From Octopus vulgaris (lineage: Eukaryota), in NCBI GenBank assembly GCA_951406725.2, contig OX597819.1, positions 120,404,001 to 120,468,000 of the forward strand: a stretch of 64,000 nt of DNA, in the 5' to 3' direction. The position numbers and the translations under genes are program-made. The notes under the pieces were generated by a model. The model searched no databases and was not told the DNA's origin. It saw only the letters and a list, made by a program, of their open reading frames with translations. Numbering within the stretch: position 1 is the first letter of the stretch; each line of letters begins with the position of its first letter. Below are positions 15,311 through 49,955 of the stretch, piece after piece.

Positions 15311-18300
15311 GTGTACAAACACACACTATTTCTTTATTACCCACTAGGGGCGACGAAGAGGGGACATTACAAGACATGGGGACATAGAACATTATAATTA
15401 AATTTATGAAGGATGAATTGTTATATGAAAAATGATAATATGAAAGCGATGCTAAAGGCCCCATCCGTTAGGTGTACAAACACACTATTTCTTTATTACC
15501 CACTAGGGGCGACGAAGAGGGGACATTACAAGACATGGGGACATAGAACATTATAATTAAATTTATGAAGGATGAATTGTTATATGAAAAATGATAATAT
15601 GAAAGCGATGCTAAAGGCCCCATCCGTTAGGTGTACAAACACACTATTTCTTTATTACCCACTAGGGGCGACGAAGAGGGGACATTACAAGACATGGGGA
15701 CATAGAACATTATAATTAAATTTATGAAGGATGAATTGTTATATGAAAAATGATAATATGAAAGCGATGCTAAAGGCCCCATCCGTTAGGTGTACAAACA
15801 CACTATTTCTTTATTACCCACTAGGGGCGACGAAGAGGGGACATTACAAGACATGGGGACATAGAACATTATAATTAAATTTATGAAGGATGAATTGTTA
15901 TATGAAAAATGATAATATGAAAGCGATGCTAAAGGCCCCATCCGTTAGGTGTACAAACACACTATTTCTTTATTACCCACTAGGGGCGACGAAGAGGGGA
16001 CATTACAAGACATGGGGACATAGAACATTATAATTAAATTTATGAAGGATGAATTGTTATATGAAAAATGATAATATGAAAGCGATGCTAAAGGCCCCAT
16101 CCGTTAGGTGTACAAACACACTATTTCTTTATTACCCACTAGGGGCGACGAAGAGGGGACATTACAAGACATGGGGACATAGAACATTATAATTAAATTT
16201 ATGAAGGATGAATTGTTATATGAAAAATGATAATATGAAAGCGATGCTAAAGGCCCCATCCGTTAGGTGTACAAACACACTATTTCTTTATTACCCACTA
16301 GGGGCGACGAAGAGGGGACATTACAAGACATGGGGACATAGAACATTATAATTAAATTTATGAAGGATGAATTGTTATATGAAAAATGATAATATGAAAG
16401 CGATGCTAAAGGCCCCATCCGTTAGGTGTACAAACACACTATTTCTTTATTACCCACTAGGGGCGACGAAGAGGGGACATTACAAGACATGGGGACATAG
16501 AACATTATAATTAAATTTATGAAGGATGAATTGTTATATGAAAAATGATAATATGAAAGCGATGCTAAAGGCCCCATCCGTTAGGTGTACAAACACACTA
16601 TTTCTTTATTACCCACTAGGGGCGACGAAGAGGGGACATTACAAGACATGGGGACATAGAACATTATAATTAAATTTATGAAGGATGAATTGTTATATGA
16701 AAAATGATAATATGAAAGCGATGCTAAAGGCCCCATCCGTTAGGTGTACAAACACACTATTTCTTTATTACCCACTAGGGGCGACGAAGAGGGGACATTA
16801 CAAGACATGGGGACATAGAACATTATAATTAAATTTATGAAGGATGAATTGTTATATGAAAAATGATAATATGAAAGCGATGCTAAAGGCCCCATCCGTT
16901 AGGTGTACAAACACACTATTTCTTTATTACCCACTAGGGGCGACGAAGAGGGGACATTACAAGACATGGGGACATAGAACATTATAATTAAATTTATGAA
17001 GGATGAATTGTTATATGAAAAATGATAATATGAAAGCGATGCTAAAGGCCCCATCCGTTAGGTGTACAAACACACTATTTCTTTATTACCCACTAGGGGC
17101 GACGAAGAGGGGACATTACAAGACATGGGGACATAGAACATTATAATTAAATTTATGAAGGATGAATTGTTATATGAAAAATGATAATATGAAAGCGATG
17201 CTAAAGGCCCCATCCGTTAGGTGTACAAACACACTATTTCTTTATTACCCACTAGGGGCGACGAAGAGGGGACATTACAAGACATGGGGACATAGAACAT
17301 TATAATTAAATTTATGAAGGATGAATTGTTATATGAAAAATGATAATATGAAAGCGATGCTAAAGGCCCCATCCGTTAGGTGTACAAACACACTATTTCT
17401 TTATTACCCACTAGGGGCGACGAAGAGGGGACATTACAAGACATGGGGACATAGAACATTATAATTAAATTTATGAAGGATGAATTGTTATATGAAAAAT
17501 GATAATATGAAAGCGATGCTAAAGGCCCCATCCGTTAGGTGTACAAACACACTATTTCTTTATTACCCACTAGGGGCGACGAAGAGGGGACATTACAAGA
17601 CATGGGGACATAGAACATTATAATTAAATTTATGAAGGATGAATTGTTATATGAAAAATGATAATATGAAAGCGATGCTAAAGGCCCCATCCGTTAGGTG
17701 TACAAACACACTATTTCTTTATTACCCACTAGGGGCGACGAAGAGGGGACATTACAAGACATGGGGACATAGAACATTATAATTAAATTTATGAAGGATG
17801 AATTGTTATATGAAAAATGATAATATGAAAGCGATGCTAAAGGCCCCATCCGTTAGGTGTACAAACACACTATTTCTTTATTACCCACTAGGGGCGACGA
17901 AGAGGGGACATTACAAGACATGGGGACATAGAACATTATAATTAAATTTATGAAGGATGAATTGTTATATGAAAAATGATAATATGAAAGCGATGCTAAA
18001 GGCCCCATCCGTTAGGTGTACAAACACACTATTTCTTTATTACCCACTAGGGGCGACGAAGAGGGGACATTACAAGACATGGGGACATAGAACATTATAA
18101 TTAAATTTATGAAGGATGAATTGTTATATGAAAAATGATAATATGAAAGCGATGCTAAAGGCCCCGTCCGTTAGGTGTACAAACACACTATTTCTTTATT
18201 ACCCACTAGGGGCGACGAAGAGGGGACATTACAAGACATGGGGACATAGAACATTATAATTAAATTTATGAAGGATGAATTGTTATATGAAAAATGATAA

Positions 18301-20028
18301 TATGAAAGCGATGCTAAAGGCCCCATCCGTTAGGTGTACAAACACACTATTTCTTTATTACCCACTAGGGGCGACGAAGAGGGGACATTACAAGACATGG
18401 GGACATAGAACATTATAATTAAATTTATGAAGGATGAATTGTTACATGAAAAAATGATAATATGAAAGCGATGCTAATGGCCCCATCCGTTAGGTTACAA
18501 ACACACTATTTCTTTATTACCCACTAGGGGCGACGAAGAGGGGACATTACAAGACATGGGGACATAGAACATTATAATTAAATTTATGAAGGATGAATTG
18601 TTATATGAAAAATGATAATATGAAAGCGATGCTAAAGGCCCCATCCGTTAGGTGTACAAACACACTATTTCTTTATTACCCACTAGGGGCGACGAAGAGG
18701 GGACATTACAAGACATGGGGACATAGAACATTATAATTAAATTTATGAAGGATGAATTGTTACATGAAAAAATGATAATATGAAAGCGATGCTAAAGGCC
18801 CCATCCGTTAGGTGTACAAACACACTATTTCTTTATTACCCACTAGGGGCGACGAAGAGGGGACACCACAAGACATGGGGACATAGAACATTAAATTTAT
18901 GAAGGATGAATTGTTATATGAAAAATGATAATATGAAAGCGATGCTAAAGGCCCCATCCGTTAGGTGTACAAACACACTATTTCTTTATTACCCACTAGG
19001 GGCGACGAAGAGGGGACATTACAAGACATGGGGACATAGAACATTATAATTAAATTTATGAAGGATGAATTGTTATATGAAAAATGATAATATGAAAGCG
19101 ATGCTAAAGGCCCCATCCGTTAGGTGTACAAACACACTATTTCTTTATTACCCACTAGGGGCGACGAAGAGGGGACATTACAAGACATGGGGACATAGAA
19201 CATTATAATTAAATTTATGAAGGATGAATTGTTATATGAAAAATGATAATATGAAAGCGATGCTAAAGGCCCCATCCGTTAGGTGTACAAACACACTATT
19301 TCTTTATTACCCACTAGGGGCGACGAAGAGGGGACATTACAAGACATGGGGACATAGAACATTATAATTAAATTTATGAAGGATGAATTGTTATATGAAA
19401 AATGATAATATGAAAGCGATGCTAAAGGCCCCATCCGTTAGGTGTACAAACACACTATTTCTTTATTACCCACTAGGGGCGACGAAGAGGGACATTACAA
19501 GACATGGGACATAGAACATTATAATTAAATTTATGAAGGATGAATTGTTATATGAAAAATGATAATATGAAAGCGATGCTAAAGGCATCCGTTAGGTGTA
19601 CAAACACACTATTTCTTTATTACCCACTAGGGGACGAAGAGGGGACATTACAAGACACATAGAACATTATAATTAAATTTATGAAGGATGAATTGTTATA
19701 TGAAAAATGATAATATGAAAGCGATGCTAAAGGCCCCATCCGTTAGGTGTACAAACACACTATTTCTTTATTACCCACTAGGGGCGACGAAGAGAGGACA
19801 TTACAAGACATGGGGACATAGAACATTATAATTAAATTTATGAAGGATGAATTGTTATATGAAAAATGATAATATGAAAGCGATGCTAAAGGCCCCATCC
19901 GTTAGGTGTACAAACACACTATTTCTTTATTACCCACTAGGGGCGACGAAGAGGGGACATTACAAGACATGGGGACATAGAACATTATAATTAAATTTAT
20001 GAAGGATGAATTGTTATATGAAAAATGA
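15311..20028. repeat. 159-bp satellite array, ~30 copies, running into an assembly gap
   Basis: CCACTAGGGG at 15341, 15500, 15659... (period 159); copies essentially identical until ~18160, then scattered indels and substitutions. Confidence 0.99.
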
Positions 20029-24179: not shown

Positions 24180-24628
24180 TCTTTTCTACTCTAGTTACAA
24201 GGCCAGAAATATTTGGGAAGGGAACCAGTTGATTAGATCGACTCCAGTACGCAACTGGTACTGAATTTATCGACCCAAAAGGATAAAAGGCAGAGACCTC
24301 GGCGGAATTTCAACTCAGAGCGTAAAGGCAGAAGAAATACCTATTTCTTTACTACCCACAAGGGGCTAAACACAGAAGGGACAAACAGGAACAGACAAAC
24401 GGATTAAGTAGATTACATCGATCCCAGTGCGTAACTGGTACTGAATTTATCGACCCCGAAAGGATGAACGGCAAAGTCGACCTCGGCGGAATTTGAACTC
24501 AGAACGTAACAGCAGATGAAATACATATTTCTTTACTACCCACAAGGGGCTAAACATAGAGAGGACAAACAAGGACAGACAAACGGATTAAGTCGATTAC
24601 ATCGGCCCCAGTGCGTAACTGGTATTTA
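24180..24628 (-). mobile_element. Tandem array of SINE family A units
   Basis: Repeated ...GAAAGGATGAAAGGCAAAGTCGACCTCGGCGGAATTTGAACTCAG...GAAATAC|CTATTTCTTTACTACCCACAAGGGGCTAAAC units. Confidence 0.9.
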
Positions 24629-24634
24629 TTGGCC

Positions 24635-25708
24635 TCATTCTCTCTCTTCATCATAATTGGAGTGGAGAGCATGCTTTTGGGGGTAGTTGTTGCTTAATAA
24701 ACTGTTACTGAGCTTGATCATTTCTTCGTGGTATATATCACGATCGCTACTTATATTCTTTGCACGATGTTTTCGGCACTGAGCAATCCCTCTGTTTACA
24801 CTGTATGGATGGTGGGAATTGAAGTTGAGGTATTGTCCAATGAAAATCGGCTTGTGGTATACGGATATCCTGAATCCATACTTAGTGCGTATTATTAATA
24901 CGTCCAGGAATGCCAGCTGATTGTCTTTTTCTTTTTCCATTGTGAACTGTGTGGCTGGCTTTATTGAGTTCACATGACCTAACAGCACTTGGACATCTTC
25001 CTGGTGAGGCCAGATTATGAAGGTGTCATCAACATATCGCAGCCATAGGGTTAGTTTTACAGGTGTTGGTCCTAAAGCCAAATTCTCAAAGAAGCTATTA
25101 TCGGTGATAATGGCGAACCCATAGCTAAACCCTCTTCTTGTCGATATATATCAGTGTCCATAATGATATAGGTAGTTTCTACACAGAAGGTCCACATTTC
25201 CATCAGGTTTCTTAGTGGTATACTAGTACGATCCTTTAGATGGGTGTGTGTCACTAGTTGTTCTTGAATAACTGAGAGTGCTTCACCAGTTGGTACTTTG
25301 GTGAACAGACTTATCACATCTAGATTCGCCATCTGGTTGGATTCAATGGGTGTATCATTGATCAATTCTGTGAAGTGGGCGGAATTCTTCATGTACGATG
25401 TTCACTTTCTTGCTAATGGACTGATTATATCCGCAAGGAAGCGGCCCAGTGGATGACATGTTGAACCTCTACAGCTCACTATAGGTCGTAATGGAATACC
25501 ATCGTTGTGAATCTTAGGAAGACCGTACATGTGTGGTAGTTTTCTGTAGCGTTGAGTTAGTTGTCTGTACTTCATCAGTGTAAATTGATCCTTCTTCTTG
25601 TTCAAGATCTGTAACAACTTCTCTGTTTTCAATGTAGGGTCTTTCTTTACTTTCCTATAGCTACCATCACTTATAAGACTTACCAGTTTTTTCGAGTAGT
25701 CAGACTTG
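24635..25708 (-). pseudogene. Penelope-like element reverse transcriptase, frameshifted and truncated (GIY-YIG domain not seen)
   Basis: YGLPKIH..IPLRPIVS, LDVISLFTKVP, GLAMGSPLSPIIA, WLRYVDDTF, FTMEKEKDNQLAFLDV and YLNFNSHHP motifs split over three ORFs. Confidence 0.93.
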
Positions 25709-25710
25709 TA

Positions 25711-26981
25711 CGAGGGGCGTTCAATAAGTAATGTCCCTGATCAATTTCCCATAGCAGTAGAGCAACGAAACTTGGCACAGTTATTAGTCTTTTTCTACAT
25801 AGGAACAACCCAGAGTTACGCATTTCTCCCATCGTTTGATGCAGCTCTGGAGACCGTTTGCTTGGTCCTCCAACCACGACTTGACTTCAGAAATCAAGGC
25901 TGCATCATCTGGGAAACGCTTTCCTTTCAAAAACAACTTCATGGCTGGGAAGAGGTGAAAATCAGAGGGTACAAGGTCAGGAGAGTAGGGGGATGGGGGA
26001 AGAGTTCATAGCCGCACGCCTGTGCTTCTGATCTGGCGACACGCGAGTTGTGGACCGGAGCGTTGTCCTGCAAGAGGAGGATGCCTTTGCTGATCTTGCC
26101 TCGCCTCTTGGTTTTGATGGCTTCTCTTAATTTCCTCAAAAGTGAAGCATGATAGGCTCCTGTAATTGTGGTACCCTTTGCCAGGAAATCTGTCATCACT
26201 ACTCCGTCCTGGTCCCAGAAGACTGTGAGCATGACCTTGCCAGCGGAGGGCTGCACCCTTGCCTTCTTTGGAGGAGGTGAGTCATGGCGCTTCCACTGCA
26301 TTGACTGGGCTTTGGTCTCTGGATCATAGTGATGGACCCAGGTTTCATCCTGTGTAATCAGTCTTTTGAAAAATTTTGACTCATCTTCTTGGCACATCCC
26401 TAAATTCATCCTCGAGCACTCGACGCGTTCTTGCTTCTGGAAAAGTGTGAGCAACCTGGGAATCCATCTGGCAGACACCTTTTGCATATGCAAATGGTCA
26501 TGAATGGTAGTTTCCACAGACCCGGTACTAATCTTGACCTCATGGGCTATTTGGCGAATAGTTATGCGTCGATCTTTCAAAATGGCAGCCTCAACTTGAC
26601 GGACAGATGACTCATCAATGGCAGAAGGGGTGCGACCAGATCTGGGAGCTGTTTCCACAGAGTTCCGACCATGTTTGAATTCACGATGCCAGCGTTTTAC
26701 AAGGTCATATGATGGGGCATCATCACCATAAGTTACTTTCATTTCATCAAAAGTCTCCTGTGGTGTGCGTCATTTCAAATACAAAAACCGGATCACTGCT
26801 CGACACTCAACAGGCTCCATTTCCCACTTGACTCATTTCAAACACCTGTAAATCAGAAACCACAATTAGTTCGTGATTTGCCACTTACTCGATAGAGATA
26901 TAAATGTTTGCACATGCAAAATTTCAGCTAGATCAAACAACGGCAAGTGGGTCAGAGGCATTACTTATTGAACGCCCCTCG
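25711..26981 (-). mobile_element. Full-length mariner (DD34D) DNA transposon, 1271 bp, TA TSD
   Basis: TIR CGAGGGGCGTTCAATAAGTAATG (23 bp perfect, ~30 bp imperfect) at both ends, flanked by TA at 25709-10 and 26982-83. Confidence 0.97.
25784..26820 (-). pseudogene. Mariner transposase, inactivated
   Basis: ATG at 26820 (MEPVECRAVIRFLYLK*), in-frame TGA at 26770-72; WIPRLL, TQDETW, QDNAPVH motifs; 1-nt deletion near 25988 breaks HPPYSPDLVPSDF; C-terminus RWEKCVTLGCSYVEKD*. Confidence 0.93.
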
Positions 26982-27202
26982 TACATTACCAGTCGAAACG
27001 TTGTGTTAACAATAAACAAAATGAGGACAAATATATGGCAATTGTAAATAATGTAATAATGTAAATAATATATGTTTGTATGTATATATATATATATATA
27101 TATATTAATCAATATTAGGGTAGCAAAAAATTCAGTAGAAATTATTTTGCCACCAGCGGTCTAGTGAGAAAAAGGAAATAGTCAGAGACTATTAATAAAT
27201 TC

Positions 27203-27614
27203 AACAACAAATTGAGGAACGGCCATAATAGGCCGTTCGACTCACTAGAAAAAGCAGCCAAGGCTTCAACCGCAAATAGTAGTAATTCCGTAAACAGAGG
27301 AAAATTAAAAAACATTTACCCTGTTCATCTTTAGACAATGCATTGTTTCAGCGTTTTTTAATGGTAAACCAGCCTGATTAAATTAAATCAATTGATGAAT
27401 TGCGTTGGCCTTTGGAAGATTGACTTGATTTAATTTAATCAGGCTGGTTTACCATTAAAAAACTCTGAAACAATGCATTGTCTAAAGATGAACAGGGTAA
27501 ATGTTTTTTTAATTTTCCTCTGTTTACGGAATTACTACTATTTGTGGTTGAAGCCCTGGCTACTTTTTCTAGTGAGTCGAACGGCCTATTATGGCCGTTC
27601 CTCAATTTGTTGTT
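27203..27614. repeat. Long inverted repeat (~189-bp arms, 33-nt spacer)
   Basis: 27203-27391 is the reverse complement of 27425-27614 with only ~5 differences. Confidence 0.97.
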
Positions 27615-27858
27615 TTATATATATATATAATAGAAATATTAAAATTACTAAGTCTCTCTAAAAGAGAACAGCGGCAGCGTTCCCGGAAAATAATAGTTAT
27701 CGCCATACTAATATGACATTCTTATAAAAATAAGAAAAAAGCTGTCCGCTTATTAGCTCCATGAGGCCATCGCCTTAAGTTAGCTATTTGATACACAAAC
27801 TGTATCCATATAACCTTCGAACAAGGGAGGTCAGTCGCTCCACACTACTTGACCGGCA

Positions 27859-27900
27859 GCTACAGACGCGTTTCGGGGTATTGCCCCTTTTCAATGCAGC
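27859..27900 (-). ncRNA. Minimal type I hammerhead ribozyme, U3-A8 core variant
   Basis: GCTGCA-TTGAAAA-GGGG caata CCCC-GAAA-CGCG-TC|TGTAGC on the minus strand. Confidence 0.75.
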
Positions 27901-28191
27901 GTAGCCAGCCAGTAGGTGTCGCTTCCGACAATCTCTGTTCGATGGTTTTATTTACCTAGTTTCGGTGGAATACATCCACTTGTTTTCAATAATAGAAATA
28001 TTAAAATTACTAAGTCTCTCTAAAAGAGAACAGCGGCAGCGTTCCCGGAAAATAATAGTTATCGCCATACTAATATGGCATTCTTATAAAAATAAGAAAA
28101 AAGCTGTCCGCTTATTAGCTCCATGAGGCCATCGCCTTAAGTTAGCTATTTGATACACAAACTGTATCCATATAACCTACTGGCTGGCTAC

Positions 28192-28233
28192 GCTGCATTG
28201 AAAAGGGGCAATACCCCGAAACGCGTCTGTAGC
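28192..28233 (+). ncRNA. Minimal type I hammerhead ribozyme, U3-A8 core variant (inverted copy)
   Basis: gctgca ttgaaaa gggg caata cccc gaaa cgcg tc tgtagc; stem I 6 bp (one G-U), stem II 4 GC bp, palindromic ACGCGT stem III, GUC site. Confidence 0.75.
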
Positions 28234-28391
28234 TGCCGGTCAAGTAGTGTGGAGCGACTGACCTCCCTTGTTCGAAGGTTATTTGGATACAGTTTGTGTA
28301 TCAAATAGCTAACTTAAGGCGATGGCCTCATGGAGCTAATAAGCGGACAGCTTTTTTCTTATTTTTATAAGAATGCCATATTAGTATGGCG

Positions 28392-28445
<54 letters not shown>

Positions 28446-28475
28446 CATATATATACATACATATATATACAATAT

Positions 28476-28551
<76 letters not shown>

Positions 28552-28554
28552 ACA

Positions 28555-29959: not shown

Positions 29960-30490
29960 AATACGCAACTGGTACTTAATTTATCGACCCCGAAAGGATG
30001 AAAGGCAAAGATGACCTCGGCGGAATTTGAACTCAGGACGTAAAGACAGACGAAATACCTATTTCTTTACTACTCACAAGGGGCTAAACATAGAGGGGAC
30101 AGACAAGGACAGACAAGCGGATTAAGTTGAATACATCTGCCCCAGTGCGTAACTGGTACTTAATTTATCGACCTCGAAAGGATGAAAGGCAAAGTCGACC
30201 TCGGCGGAATTTGAACTCAGAACGTAAAGACAGACAAAATACCTATTTGTTTACTACCCACAACGGGCTAAACACAGAGGGGACAGACAAGGACAGACAA
30301 ACGGATTAAGTCGAATACATCTACCCCAGTGCGTAACTGGTACTTAATTTATCGACCCCGAAAGGATGAAAGGTAAAGTCGACCTCGGCGGAATTTGAAC
30401 TCAGGACGTAAAGACAGATGAAATACCTATTTCTTTACTACCCACAAGGGGCTAAACACGGAGAGGACAAACAAGGACAGACAAACGGTC
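29960..30490 (-). mobile_element. Tandem array (~3 units, 184-bp period) of SINE family A
   Basis: CGAAAGGATG block recurs at ~29991, 30175 and 30359. Confidence 0.92.
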
Positions 30491-31469: not shown

Positions 31470-31985
31470 GGGGCGGAATTTGTACTCAGAACGTAAACAC
31501 AGACGAAATACATATTTCTTTACTACCCACTAGGGTCGAAACACAGAGAGGACAAACAAGGACAGACAAACGGATTAGGTCGATTACATCCACCCCAATG
31601 CGTCACTGGTACTTATTTAATCGACCCCCGAAAGGCTGAAAGGCAAAGTCGACCTCGGCGGAATCTGAACACAGAACGTAGCGGCAGACGAAATATCTAT
31701 TTCTTTACTACCTACAAGGGGCTAAACACAGAGAGGACAAATAAGGACAGACAAACGGATTAAGTCGACTATATCGACCCCAGTGCGTAACTGGTACTTA
31801 TTTAATCGACCCCGAAAGGATGAAAGGCAAAGTCGACCTTAGCGGAATTTGAACTCAGAACGTAACGGCAGACGAAATACCGCTAAGCATTTCGCCCAAC
31901 GTGCTAACGATTCTGCCAGTTCACCGCCTTTAATATTCTTTTCTACTCTTGGCACAAAGCCCGAGAATTCTGGAGAGGGGACCAG
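31470..31985 (-). mobile_element. Tandem array of SINE family A including a complete tRNA-like head
   Basis: Two repeated units, then GAAATACCGCTAAGCATTTCGCCCAACGTGCTAACGATTCTGCCAGTTCACCGCC. Confidence 0.9.
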
Positions 31986-48648: not shown

Positions 48649-49955
48649 CTCTCTCTCTACTATAGCCTAAAGAAGAGTAACTCCGATCAAAAATGTTCCA
48701 TTCATGATTACCGCATTCTTTATTCAGACTGTGTTTATCAACGGCTACAATATCTAATGATTCCTAAGATACTAGTATGTGGAGGCGAGCCCCTTAGTGG
48801 TTAGGCTGCTGGACTCATGATCGTAAGCGTGCGGTTTTGATTTCTGAACTGGGCGATGGTTTGTGTTCTTGAGCGAAATACTTCCTTTTCTATTGCTCCA
48901 ATCCACTCAACTGATTACAATGAGCAATCGTGTGATGGACCGACGCCCCGTCCAGTGGAGGACTATATGCCAAACCAGAATACTGGTTTGGCGTTTACAT
49001 GTGTTTGTCAAGCTAACTAATATATCGGCAAGTTCTTTTCTGGTCTACGCACAAGGCCAGAAATTTTGTGGGAAGGGGGAACCAGTCGATTAGACCCCCG
49101 GTGGCGACCTGTACTTAATTCACTGACCCCGAAACGAGGAAAGGCAAAGTCAACCTCGGTGGAATTTGAACTCAGAACATAGGGACAGGCGAAATACCGC
49201 TATGCATTTCGCCCGGCGTTATAACGTTTCTGCCAGCCTACCACCTTGAAGTGTATGTGTATTCTTTTCTACCCTGGGCACAAGGTACAAAATTTTGGGA
49301 GAGACGTGTTGCAGTTGATTATATCGACCCCAGAACGCAACTGGTACTTAATTTATCGACCCCGAAGGGATGAAAGATAAAATCGACCTCGGTGGAATTT
49401 GAACTCAGAACATAACGGCAGACGAAATACCTATATTTTTACTACCCACAAGGGCTAAACACAGAGAGGACAAACAAGGACAGACAAACGGATTAAGTCG
49501 ATTATATCTACCCCAGAGCGTAACTGATACTTATTTAATCGACCCCGATAGGATAAAAGGCAAAGTCGACCTCGGCGAAATTTGAACTCAGAACGTAACG
49601 GCAGACGAAATACCTATTTCTTTACTACCCACAAGGGGCTAAACACAGAGAGGACATACAAAGAAAAGACAAACTGACTAAGTCGATTACATCGACCCAG
49701 TACATAACTGGTACTTATTTCATCGACCCCGAAAAGGATGAAAGGCAAAATCGACCCCGAAGGAATTTGAATGCAACGGAAAGACGGACAAGATGCCGCT
49801 AAATATTTTGACTGGCGTGTTAATGATTCTGCTAGATCACCGCCATATCAACATGGGGCCTGGAATTTTGGAGGCGGGGACCAGTCGATTACATCGACCC
49901 CAGCGCGTATATTGTACTTGATTTATCGACCCCGAAAAGATGAAAGGCAAAATCG
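48185..49955 (-). mobile_element. Cluster of SINE family A copies and tandem units
   Basis: Family A blocks at ~48185-48595 and 49035-49955. Confidence 0.85.

What the first reader, a model, noticed from the sequence alone, without database searches (positions are those of the whole stretch)
27627..28395. 362-bp hammerhead-ribozyme unit with a U3-A8 catalytic-core variant: candidate retrozyme or circRNA-forming PLE partner
Seen: a non-coding 362-bp monomer repeated head-to-tail (~1.5 copies) and then inverted at a 4-nt ACCT microhomology, between (TA)n tracts and ~0.6 kb from the mariner-split Penelope-like RT. It contains GCTGCA-TTGAAAA-GGGG(caata)CCCC-GAAA-CGCG-TC|TGTAGC. Known: the hammerhead core is C3UGANG8A...GAAA...UH with a C3-G8 tertiary pair, and U3-A8 is a compensatory variant. 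PLE pseudo-LTRs and metazoan non-LTR retrozymes carry minimal type I hammerheads whose palindromic stem III (here ACGCGU) allows dimeric cleavage. A scan for the standard CUGANGA core would miss this one. Inference: a young self-cleaving, non-autonomous element mobilised by PLE RT that may yield ~362-nt monomer or circular RNAs.
Basis: partly seen in the sequence, partly recalled or inferred. Interest (0 to 1): 0.78.

Follow-up and report, generated by a model that had tools for sequence, protein, structure and literature searches.

The report
Tandem retrozyme with variant hammerhead core
A 362-letter non-coding repeat, scattered in tandem and inverted copies at well over a thousand places in this animal genome, carries a rare variant of the hammerhead ribozyme motif and likely spreads as a self-cutting, possibly circular RNA by borrowing the enzyme of a Penelope-type jumping gene.

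Summary
Observation confirmed. The 362-bp unit is one copy of a dispersed non-coding family. The genome holds 2,080 exact matches to its U3-A8 hammerhead pattern (control 0), in at least four lineages 13-16% apart. Arrays reach about 10 units.

Stems I, II and III show compensatory changes between lineages. A double (dimeric) hammerhead is the predicted best fold.

Insertions carry Penelope-like-element (PLE) hallmarks: (TA)n targets, inversions, and two fixed 3' ends about 60 nt apart. None of about 150 insertions is the terminal repeat of a coding PLE.

The neighbouring RT is an old, unrelated family with a different (C3-G8) hammerhead. The better partner candidate is a young Neptune/Nematis-type PLE elsewhere in the genome. 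It shares the U3-A8 core, TA targeting and age, but its pseudo-LTR does not align with the unit.

Verdict: a metazoan non-LTR retrozyme, a known class. U3-A8 is known from schistosome PLEs; I found no report of it in a retrozyme. Cleavage, expression and circles are untested. This copy has only one hammerhead per strand, so it could not excise a monomer itself.

The parts
27627..27988 (-). One full 362-bp monomer (unit position 1 = 27988, 362 = 27627). Its 3' end (...CTATTAT) abuts (TA)n and is the commoner of the family's two fixed 3' ends.
27989..28178 (-). 5'-truncated upstream tandem copy (unit positions 173-362); no hammerhead
28175..28395 (+). Inverted segment (unit positions 72-292), joined at a 4-nt ACCT overlap; ends near the family's second 3' end (about 299-302) in (TA)n
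27859..27900 (-). Type I hammerhead motif: stem I GCUGCA/UGUAGC, core U3 UGAAA with A8, stem II 4 bp, GAAA, palindromic ACGCGU; predicted cleavage between 27865 and 27864
28192..28233 (+). Second copy of the same hammerhead motif in the inverted arm; U3 at 28198, A8 at 28203, C17 at 28227
27945..27996 (-). Relic hammerhead-like motif across the monomer junction (U3-A8-type box, 5-bp hairpin, GAAA box broken in several lineages); probably not active
27614..27626 (.). (TA)n target tract, left
28395..28552 (.). (TA)n target tract, right

Best explanation
This is one insertion of a non-coding, tandemly repeated 360-bp element (a non-LTR retrozyme) whose RNA is predicted to cut itself with a U3-A8 hammerhead working as a dimer and is likely copied into (TA)n sites by the reverse transcriptase-endonuclease of a Neptune/Nematis-type Penelope-like element acting in trans. 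Steps. (1) Arrays with two or more same-strand hammerheads exist (shown, 14 of 69 loci) and are transcribed (inferred). (2) Two hammerheads pair through the palindromic stem III and cleave after GUC, releasing 360-nt monomers that may be ligated to circles (predicted). (3) The PLE protein nicks AT-rich DNA and starts reverse transcription inside the RNA at one of two fixed sites, unit positions about 300 and about 362 (end clustering shown; mechanism inferred from PMC11167929). (4) Synthesis runs through the cleavage site, on a circle or an uncleaved multimer, and stalls or switches strand at stable helices. This gives 1-10 head-to-tail units, 5' truncation and inversions (structures shown; cause inferred). 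The window copy, with one hammerhead per strand, is a likely dead-end product.
For: Copy number and youth: 1,115 candidates, best 40 scored, full-length matches 98-100%; 2,080 hammerhead pattern matches vs 0 control. Four lineages 13-16% apart and 2-4% within, all about 360 bp (77 full monomers). Covariation: stem II first pair G-C/G-U/A-U, stem III ACGCGU/ACAUGU, two distal stem I pairs, 91% of cells paired vs 26-49% when slid; stem I pair G-U/G-C/A-U and free N7 = A/U/C. The double hammerhead is the co-fold minimum, -60.9 vs 2 x -27.4 kcal/mol. The circular monomer folds with z -6.8 (lineage A) and -3.9 (lineage B) against 60 shuffles. PLE hallmarks in a set chosen by hammerhead pattern on contig C1 (plus 3 C2 loci): 61 of 91 loci inverted; 142 of 161 segment 3' ends at two sites, 122 of these 142 running into (TA)n. 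These match the described PLE tail, inversion and TA features (PMC8557442 passages, PMC11167929). No coding parent: no PLE ORF joined in pseudo-LTR geometry in 27+30+72+20 loci (one locus is in two sets); 0 of 55 outer 5' junction flanks shared between loci. Candidate helper: 781-aa RT + GIY-YIG frame with a Cx4CxxC linker, 16 such open frames among 148 listed matches, pseudo-LTR copies 99-100% identical, TA-inserting, U3-A8 hammerhead with ACAUGU stem III, and two 3' ends about 30 nt apart, the second ending in C(C/T)TATTAT.
Against: No cleavage, expression or circle data. The unit does not align to the helper's pseudo-LTR or to the 3' regions of 20 coding PLE loci (best scores 18-37 vs shuffled maxima 26-42; two at or slightly above their shuffle maximum), so the partner is inferred, not shown. 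Covariation rests on few lineage-level events: the number of pairs with double changes (4) equals the shuffle mean (4.2; 405 of 500), and 21 of 104 predicted whole-unit pairs are broken in at least one of 5 lineage copies. Lineage B replaces the usually conserved G10.1-C11.1 pair by A-U. 5' breakpoints do not pile up at the cleavage site: 0 of 260 at position 125, 9 at 124-128, against 38 at 161-170. Only 9 locus-private substitutions are shared by all units of an array vs 103 in a single unit, which does not separate circle from multimer templates. In the 2026 preprint 8 of 9 tested retrozyme dimers did not cleave; in PMC11167929 hammerhead cleavage was not needed for insertion.
Confidence: 0.72

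Rival explanations
1. Same non-autonomous PLE-mobilised element, but the hammerhead is weak or protein-dependent and no circles form; the template is a linear multimeric transcript and the conserved fold serves protein binding. This differs from the best explanation only in steps 2 and 4.
For: No breakpoint peak at the cleavage site. Most insertions span the site. Hammerhead mutants still insert in vitro (PMC11167929). Low in vitro activity of PLE hammerheads (PMC4209133) and of 8 of 9 frog retrozymes (bioRxiv 2026.07.22.740005).
Against: Core boxes are kept across lineages 13-16% apart while N7 and stems vary. Homogeneous arrays of up to about 10 units keep appearing although insertions are usually truncated. 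Mussel retrozymes of the same size do make abundant circles (PMC7229834).
Confidence: 0.15
2. The unit is the pseudo-LTR of a coding PLE not yet found, and the arrays are by-products of that element.
For: All insertion hallmarks are PLE hallmarks. Frog retrozymes are homologous to pseudo-LTRs (24 of 57 families, bioRxiv 2026.07.22.740005). Searches score only the best candidates, and only about 150 of more than 1,000 loci were inspected. One locus (L142) is joined to about 190 bp of a Neptune-type ORF start.
Against: Upstream of a unit lies another unit or unique target DNA, never a shared sequence (0 of 55). No ORF in pseudo-LTR geometry in the loci. The L142 fragment belongs to an older family (about 80-88% among copies) and can be pre-existing target DNA.
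Confidence: 0.09
3. A DNA-level satellite or foldback/MITE-like repeat in which the hammerhead is incidental.
For: Tandem arrays and inverted arms.
Against: Copies are dispersed over many chromosome-scale contigs in short arrays. 3' ends are fixed and 5' ends ragged, as in retrotransposition. Inversion points vary, so there are no fixed terminal inverted repeats. RNA stems covary.
Confidence: 0.03

Closest known systems
Metazoan non-LTR retrozymes (coral, mussel, axolotl; Cervera and de la Pena 2020, PMC7229834)
   Same: Non-coding tandem units of 170-400 nt (mussel 350-390 bp), GC below 45% (here 41%), one type I hammerhead per unit, thousands of copies, PLEs in the same genome, strongly folded predicted circle.
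   Different: Core is U3-A8 rather than C3-G8. Circles and cleavage are shown there and untested here. Here the insertion ends (two fixed 3' sites, TA targets, inversions) tie the element to PLE-type reverse transcription at the genomic level.
Vertebrate retrozymes as non-autonomous PLE derivatives (bioRxiv 10.64898/2026.07.22.740005)
   Same: Monomer, dimer and multimer arrays with type I hammerheads; co-occurrence with Neptune and Poseidon PLEs.
   Different: There 24 of 57 frog families are homologous to known TEs, 21 of the 22 matches being PLE pseudo-LTRs; here no alignable pseudo-LTR was found. That survey is mostly vertebrate and uses canonical and minimal hammerhead models.
U3-A8 minimal hammerheads of Schistosoma Cercyon PLEs (PMC4209133)
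   Same: Same core covariation; short palindromic helix III implying dimers.
   Different: Those have long helix II and short helix I, are mostly single heterogeneous motifs and belong to PLE pseudo-LTRs. This one has canonical helix sizes (I 6 bp, II 4 bp) plus a long distal stem and sits in a homogeneous tandem non-coding unit.
PLE pseudo-LTR and 'tail' (PAc Poseidon, PMC11167929; PMC8557442)
   Same: Two alternative 3' ends downstream of a hammerhead, partial tandems, inverted 5' segments, AT-rich targets.
   Different: No ORF; the tail is about 60 nt rather than 30-40; the ends lie about 175 and 238 nt after the cleavage site rather than about 85-90.

Membership tests
Non-LTR retrozyme | Short (about 170-400 nt) non-coding unit in head-to-tail repeats | tested here: met
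   362-bp unit, arrays to about 10 units; longest Met ORF 38 aa
Non-LTR retrozyme | Type I hammerhead in each unit, at least two consecutive units intact in some arrays | tested here: met
   14 of 69 C1 loci; not met by the window copy itself
Non-LTR retrozyme | Dispersed multi-copy family without LTR features or its own ORF | tested here: met
   no ORF joined
Non-LTR retrozyme | Self-cleavage of the RNA | not testable with these tools
   Only structure prediction and covariation
Non-LTR retrozyme | Expression as linear and circular monomer RNA | not tested
Type I hammerhead ribozyme | Core boxes with a 3-8 Watson-Crick pair, GAAA, UH, three helices | tested here: met
   U3-A8 pair, G5 A6 A9 G12 A13 A14 A15.1 U16.1 C17 present; helix III only 1-2 bp unless dimeric; lineage B has A10.1-U11.1
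Type I hammerhead ribozyme | Helices supported by compensatory change | tested here: inconclusive
   4 of 25 pairs double-changed; 35 cells vs 12.9 shuffled (0/500), but pair count not above shuffles (405/500); a further stem I A-U type in lineage C; few independent events
Pseudo-LTR of a coding PLE | Unit contiguous with an RT + GIY-YIG ORF | tested here: not met
   None in about 150 insertions; the census is incomplete
PLE-mobilised element | Fixed alternative 3' ends (tail), 5' truncation, inverted segments, microsatellite targets | tested here: met
PLE-mobilised element | Terminal sequence shared with an identified autonomous partner | tested here: not met
   No alignment to the pseudo-LTRs or 3' regions examined; only motif-level sharing

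The most novel reading that the evidence does not exclude
A viroid-like 360-nt circular RNA parasite that has persisted through at least four lineages by being recognised by a Neptune-type PLE protein through RNA structure and short motifs rather than pseudo-LTR homology. Reverse transcription starts at two fixed internal sites and rolls round the circle. It would be the first retrozyme with a U3-A8 core that I could find, and a ready natural pair (young intact helper plus young parasite) for testing whether PLE reverse transcriptases use circular templates.
Probability: 0.35. Interest if true: 0.7.

Novelty: new variant of a known kind. Interest (0 to 1): 0.46.

Why it matters
How animal retrozymes are mobilised, and whether PLE enzymes copy circular RNA, are open questions stated in PMC7229834 and the 2026 preprint. 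This family shows PLE-type insertion footprints on a non-coding unit and comes with a contemporaneous, intact candidate helper, so both questions become directly testable in vitro. It also shows that scans for the standard CUGANGA core miss about 2,000 hammerhead motifs of this family in one genome, plus those of the young coding PLE family. The class and the core variant are each already described, which limits surprise.

Tried and rejected
Neighbouring RT as parent or helper: rejected. Family copies are 84-90% identical in DNA (14 loci) and 68-82% in protein, show no hit to the unit at E<=1, and have their own C3-G8 hammerhead.

L064/L083, a lineage-B copy beside a coding PLE: the two are tail-to-tail and separated by about 500 bp of (TA)n, so independent insertions. 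L179, L157 and L161 are likewise separated by microsatellite or unrelated DNA.

L142 junction to a Neptune-type ORF start as evidence of template switching: left open. The fragment is from an older family and is duplicated in inverted form, as target flanks can be.

Second hammerhead-like motif at the unit junction as an active ribozyme: rejected; its GAAA box is GAAG or GTAA in several lineages and stem I pairs poorly.

5' ends as evidence of in vivo cleavage: no peak at the site. Array-private variants as a circle test: uninformative.

Rfam at gathering thresholds: no hit. Three look-ups of earlier findings returned nothing. A Pfam family used by the protein database was not in the genome-search library. 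Luense et al. 2016 (PMC5785218), on small PLE hammerhead variants, could not be read and may already cover U3-A8 activity or related motifs. The age of the L179 PLE family was not determined. No RNA reads were examined.

Full report
1. Observation. The locus reads, on the minus strand, unit positions 173-362 then 1-362, preceded by an inverted segment 72-292. Repeat finding gives the 362-bp spacing and the 221-nt inverted arm, both 99%; the junction overlap is ACCT. The hammerhead motif occurs twice, once per strand (27900-27859 minus, 28192-28233 plus). These are the only two hits of a C3-G8/U3-A8 type I scan of the window. Rfam finds nothing at gathering thresholds. The unit is 41% GC with no Met-started ORF above 38 aa.

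2. The family. A search of the window's genome gave 1,115 candidates; the 40 scored held 158 matches, full-length ones 98-100% identical, spread over most large contigs. One array has about 10 units at 99.7-99.9%. An 81% identical 360-bp relative defined lineage B (2,887 candidates, top 40 at 95-97%). Two hammerhead patterns matched 1,249 and 2,080 times against 0 for reversed controls. I fetched all 69 loci of the first pattern on contig C1, 3 on C2, and 20 of the additional C1 loci listed for the second pattern. Seventy-seven full monomers fall into four lineages (34, 37, 5 and 1 copies), 2-4% diverged within and 13-16% between. The unit has therefore multiplied as a unit several times.

3. 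The ribozyme. On 27 distinct A and B copies chosen by me from 110, 91% of cells in the 25-pair model are paired (26-49% when slid). Four pairs change on both sides: stem II G-C/A-U with G-U intermediates, the stem III centre (ACGCGU/ACAUGU), and two distal stem I pairs. The cell count beats all 500 shuffles, but the pair count does not (405 of 500), and the events are few. Lineage C adds an A-U type at a stem I pair seen as G-U and G-C elsewhere; N7 is A, U or C. Over the whole unit 7 of 104 predicted pairs are compensatory, 11 change on one side and 21 are broken somewhere among five lineage copies. A single hammerhead is predicted to misfold (-27.4 vs -20.7 kcal/mol for the active form), whereas the double hammerhead is the co-fold minimum at -60.9. 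The circular monomer folds better than 60 shuffles (z -6.8 and -3.9). A relic hammerhead-like motif spans the unit junction but is not conserved. Activity is predicted only.

4. Insertion anatomy. In the pattern-chosen set, 61 of 91 loci have an inversion. Of 161 segment 3' ends, 142 fall at unit positions 292-304 (68) or 353-362/1-9 (74), and 122 of those 142 run into (TA)n, against 3 of 19 other ends. The top-hit sets agree: 21 of 27 and 16 of 30 inverted; 43 of 48 and 36 of 46 outer 3' ends in TA. Both end sites finish in CTATTAT in lineage A. 5' breakpoints are ragged, with a peak at 161-170 (38 of 260) in the long predicted helix and none exactly at the cleavage site. Partial tandems, inverted 5' segments, an optional tail and microsatellite targets are PLE hallmarks (PMC8557442, passages). 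The tail reflects two internal reverse-transcription starts (PMC11167929, main text and part of the methods). Fourteen of 69 loci have two intact same-strand hammerheads one unit apart; the window copy does not.

5. Is it a pseudo-LTR? PLE proteins hit the flanks of 0 of 27 A loci, 1 of 30 B loci, 4 of 72 and 0 of 20 further loci. L104/L083, L179, L157 and L161 are separated from the unit by microsatellite or other DNA. L142 is joined to about 190 bp of an older Neptune-type ORF start and is ambiguous. None of 55 outer 5' flanks in 152 insertions is shared at the junction with another locus. The mobilised RNA is therefore the unit multimer or circle. A rare coding parent is not excluded, because most copies were not inspected.

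6. Which enzyme? The neighbouring RT is a broken member of an old family (9,002 candidates, 68-82% protein identity; 84-90% DNA identity to 14 loci) with no similarity to the unit. Its family pseudo-LTR carries a C3-G8 minimal hammerhead, whose 3' half lies at window 26987-27061. A GIY-YIG search found a young family with 16 open 781-aa frames among 148 listed matches. It has RT and GIY-YIG domains, a Cx4CxxC linker (Neptune/Nematis type per PMC8557442) and an upstream ORF. Its pseudo-LTR copies are 99-100% identical (1,045 candidates, 40 scored), the same age as lineage A. It inserts in (TA)n, carries a U3-A8 hammerhead with ACAUGU stem III as in lineage B, and ends at two sites about 30 nt apart, the second in C(C/T)TATTAT. 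It does not align with the unit, nor do 3' regions of 20 coding PLE loci. It is the best candidate helper, not a proven one.

7. Comparison with what is known. Non-LTR retrozymes with 350-390-bp units and abundant circles are described in a mussel (PMC7229834; passages and sections 14 and 17). A 2026 preprint argues that they are non-autonomous PLE derivatives, and found cleavage in 1 of 9 tested dimers (parts 1-3 of 5; supplements closed). U3-A8 was reported in Schistosoma PLE hammerheads (PMC4209133, parts 1-2 of 4). Searches for hammerhead + U3-A8 + core gave only that paper. Hammerhead + C3U + G8A gave none. Retrozyme + cephalopod, hammerhead ribozyme + octopus and retrozyme + Neptune gave no report of this family in their listings. 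An octopus repeat annotation has no occurrence of 'hammerhead' (PMC13282606, passages). A review confirms the dimer model (PMC6765202, passages). Luense et al. 2016 could not be read, and Repbase/Dfam were not searchable, so the family may be catalogued there. That the host is octopus-like is my recollection-based guess and comes from no call.

8. Verdict. It works like a metazoan non-LTR retrozyme and, on every feature testable here, is one; it is not an ordinary pseudo-LTR and is unrelated to the RT next door. New here: the U3-A8 core in a tandem retrozyme, genomic footprints of PLE-type reverse transcription on a unit with no alignable PLE parent, and a contemporaneous intact candidate helper. 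Shown: sequence, copy structure, lineages, end patterns. Inferred: cleavage, circles, helper identity. Interest 0.46.

Noticed in passing
L076:430-5672 (G000:C16:20834929-20840171) and related loci L077-L081: Young two-ORF Neptune/Nematis-type PLE family (781-aa RT-GIY-YIG frame, 456-bp pseudo-LTR, TA-inserting) whose hammerhead also has a U3-A8 core and an AT-rich stem I; standard scans would miss it.
   Followed up: partly
window 25711-26981: Mariner transposon with terminal inverted repeats and a frameshifted transposase (Pfam Transposase_1), sitting at the inversion junction of the old PLE.
   Followed up: partly
window 24635-25710 (-) and 26987-27061 (+): Old broken PLE RT (Poseidon-like by my reading; 29% to the Neptune-type protein) and the inverted 3' half of its pseudo-LTR with a C3-G8 minimal hammerhead.
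   Followed up: yes
window 27104-27626: Another TA-flanked element with nested inverted repeats, about 80% identical to stretches in L202, L236 and L024; not identified.
   Followed up: no
window 24227-24624, 29967-30488, 31472-31880, 49313-49771: A 184-bp repeat in short tandem runs at several sites; SINE-like by recollection.
   Followed up: no
window 15311-20028: 159-bp satellite, about 30 copies at 98%.
   Followed up: no
L142:2299-3530: Lineage-B insertion joined to about 190 bp of a Neptune-type ORF start, with the junction duplicated in inverted form; template switch or pre-existing target.
   Followed up: partly
L229:232-447: A still older relative of the unit (71% identity), suggesting further lineages.
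   Followed up: no
L016, L120, L126: Insertions outside long TA tracts show apparent 8-11-bp target-site duplications; L007 shows an inverted duplication of flanking DNA (read by eye).
   Followed up: no
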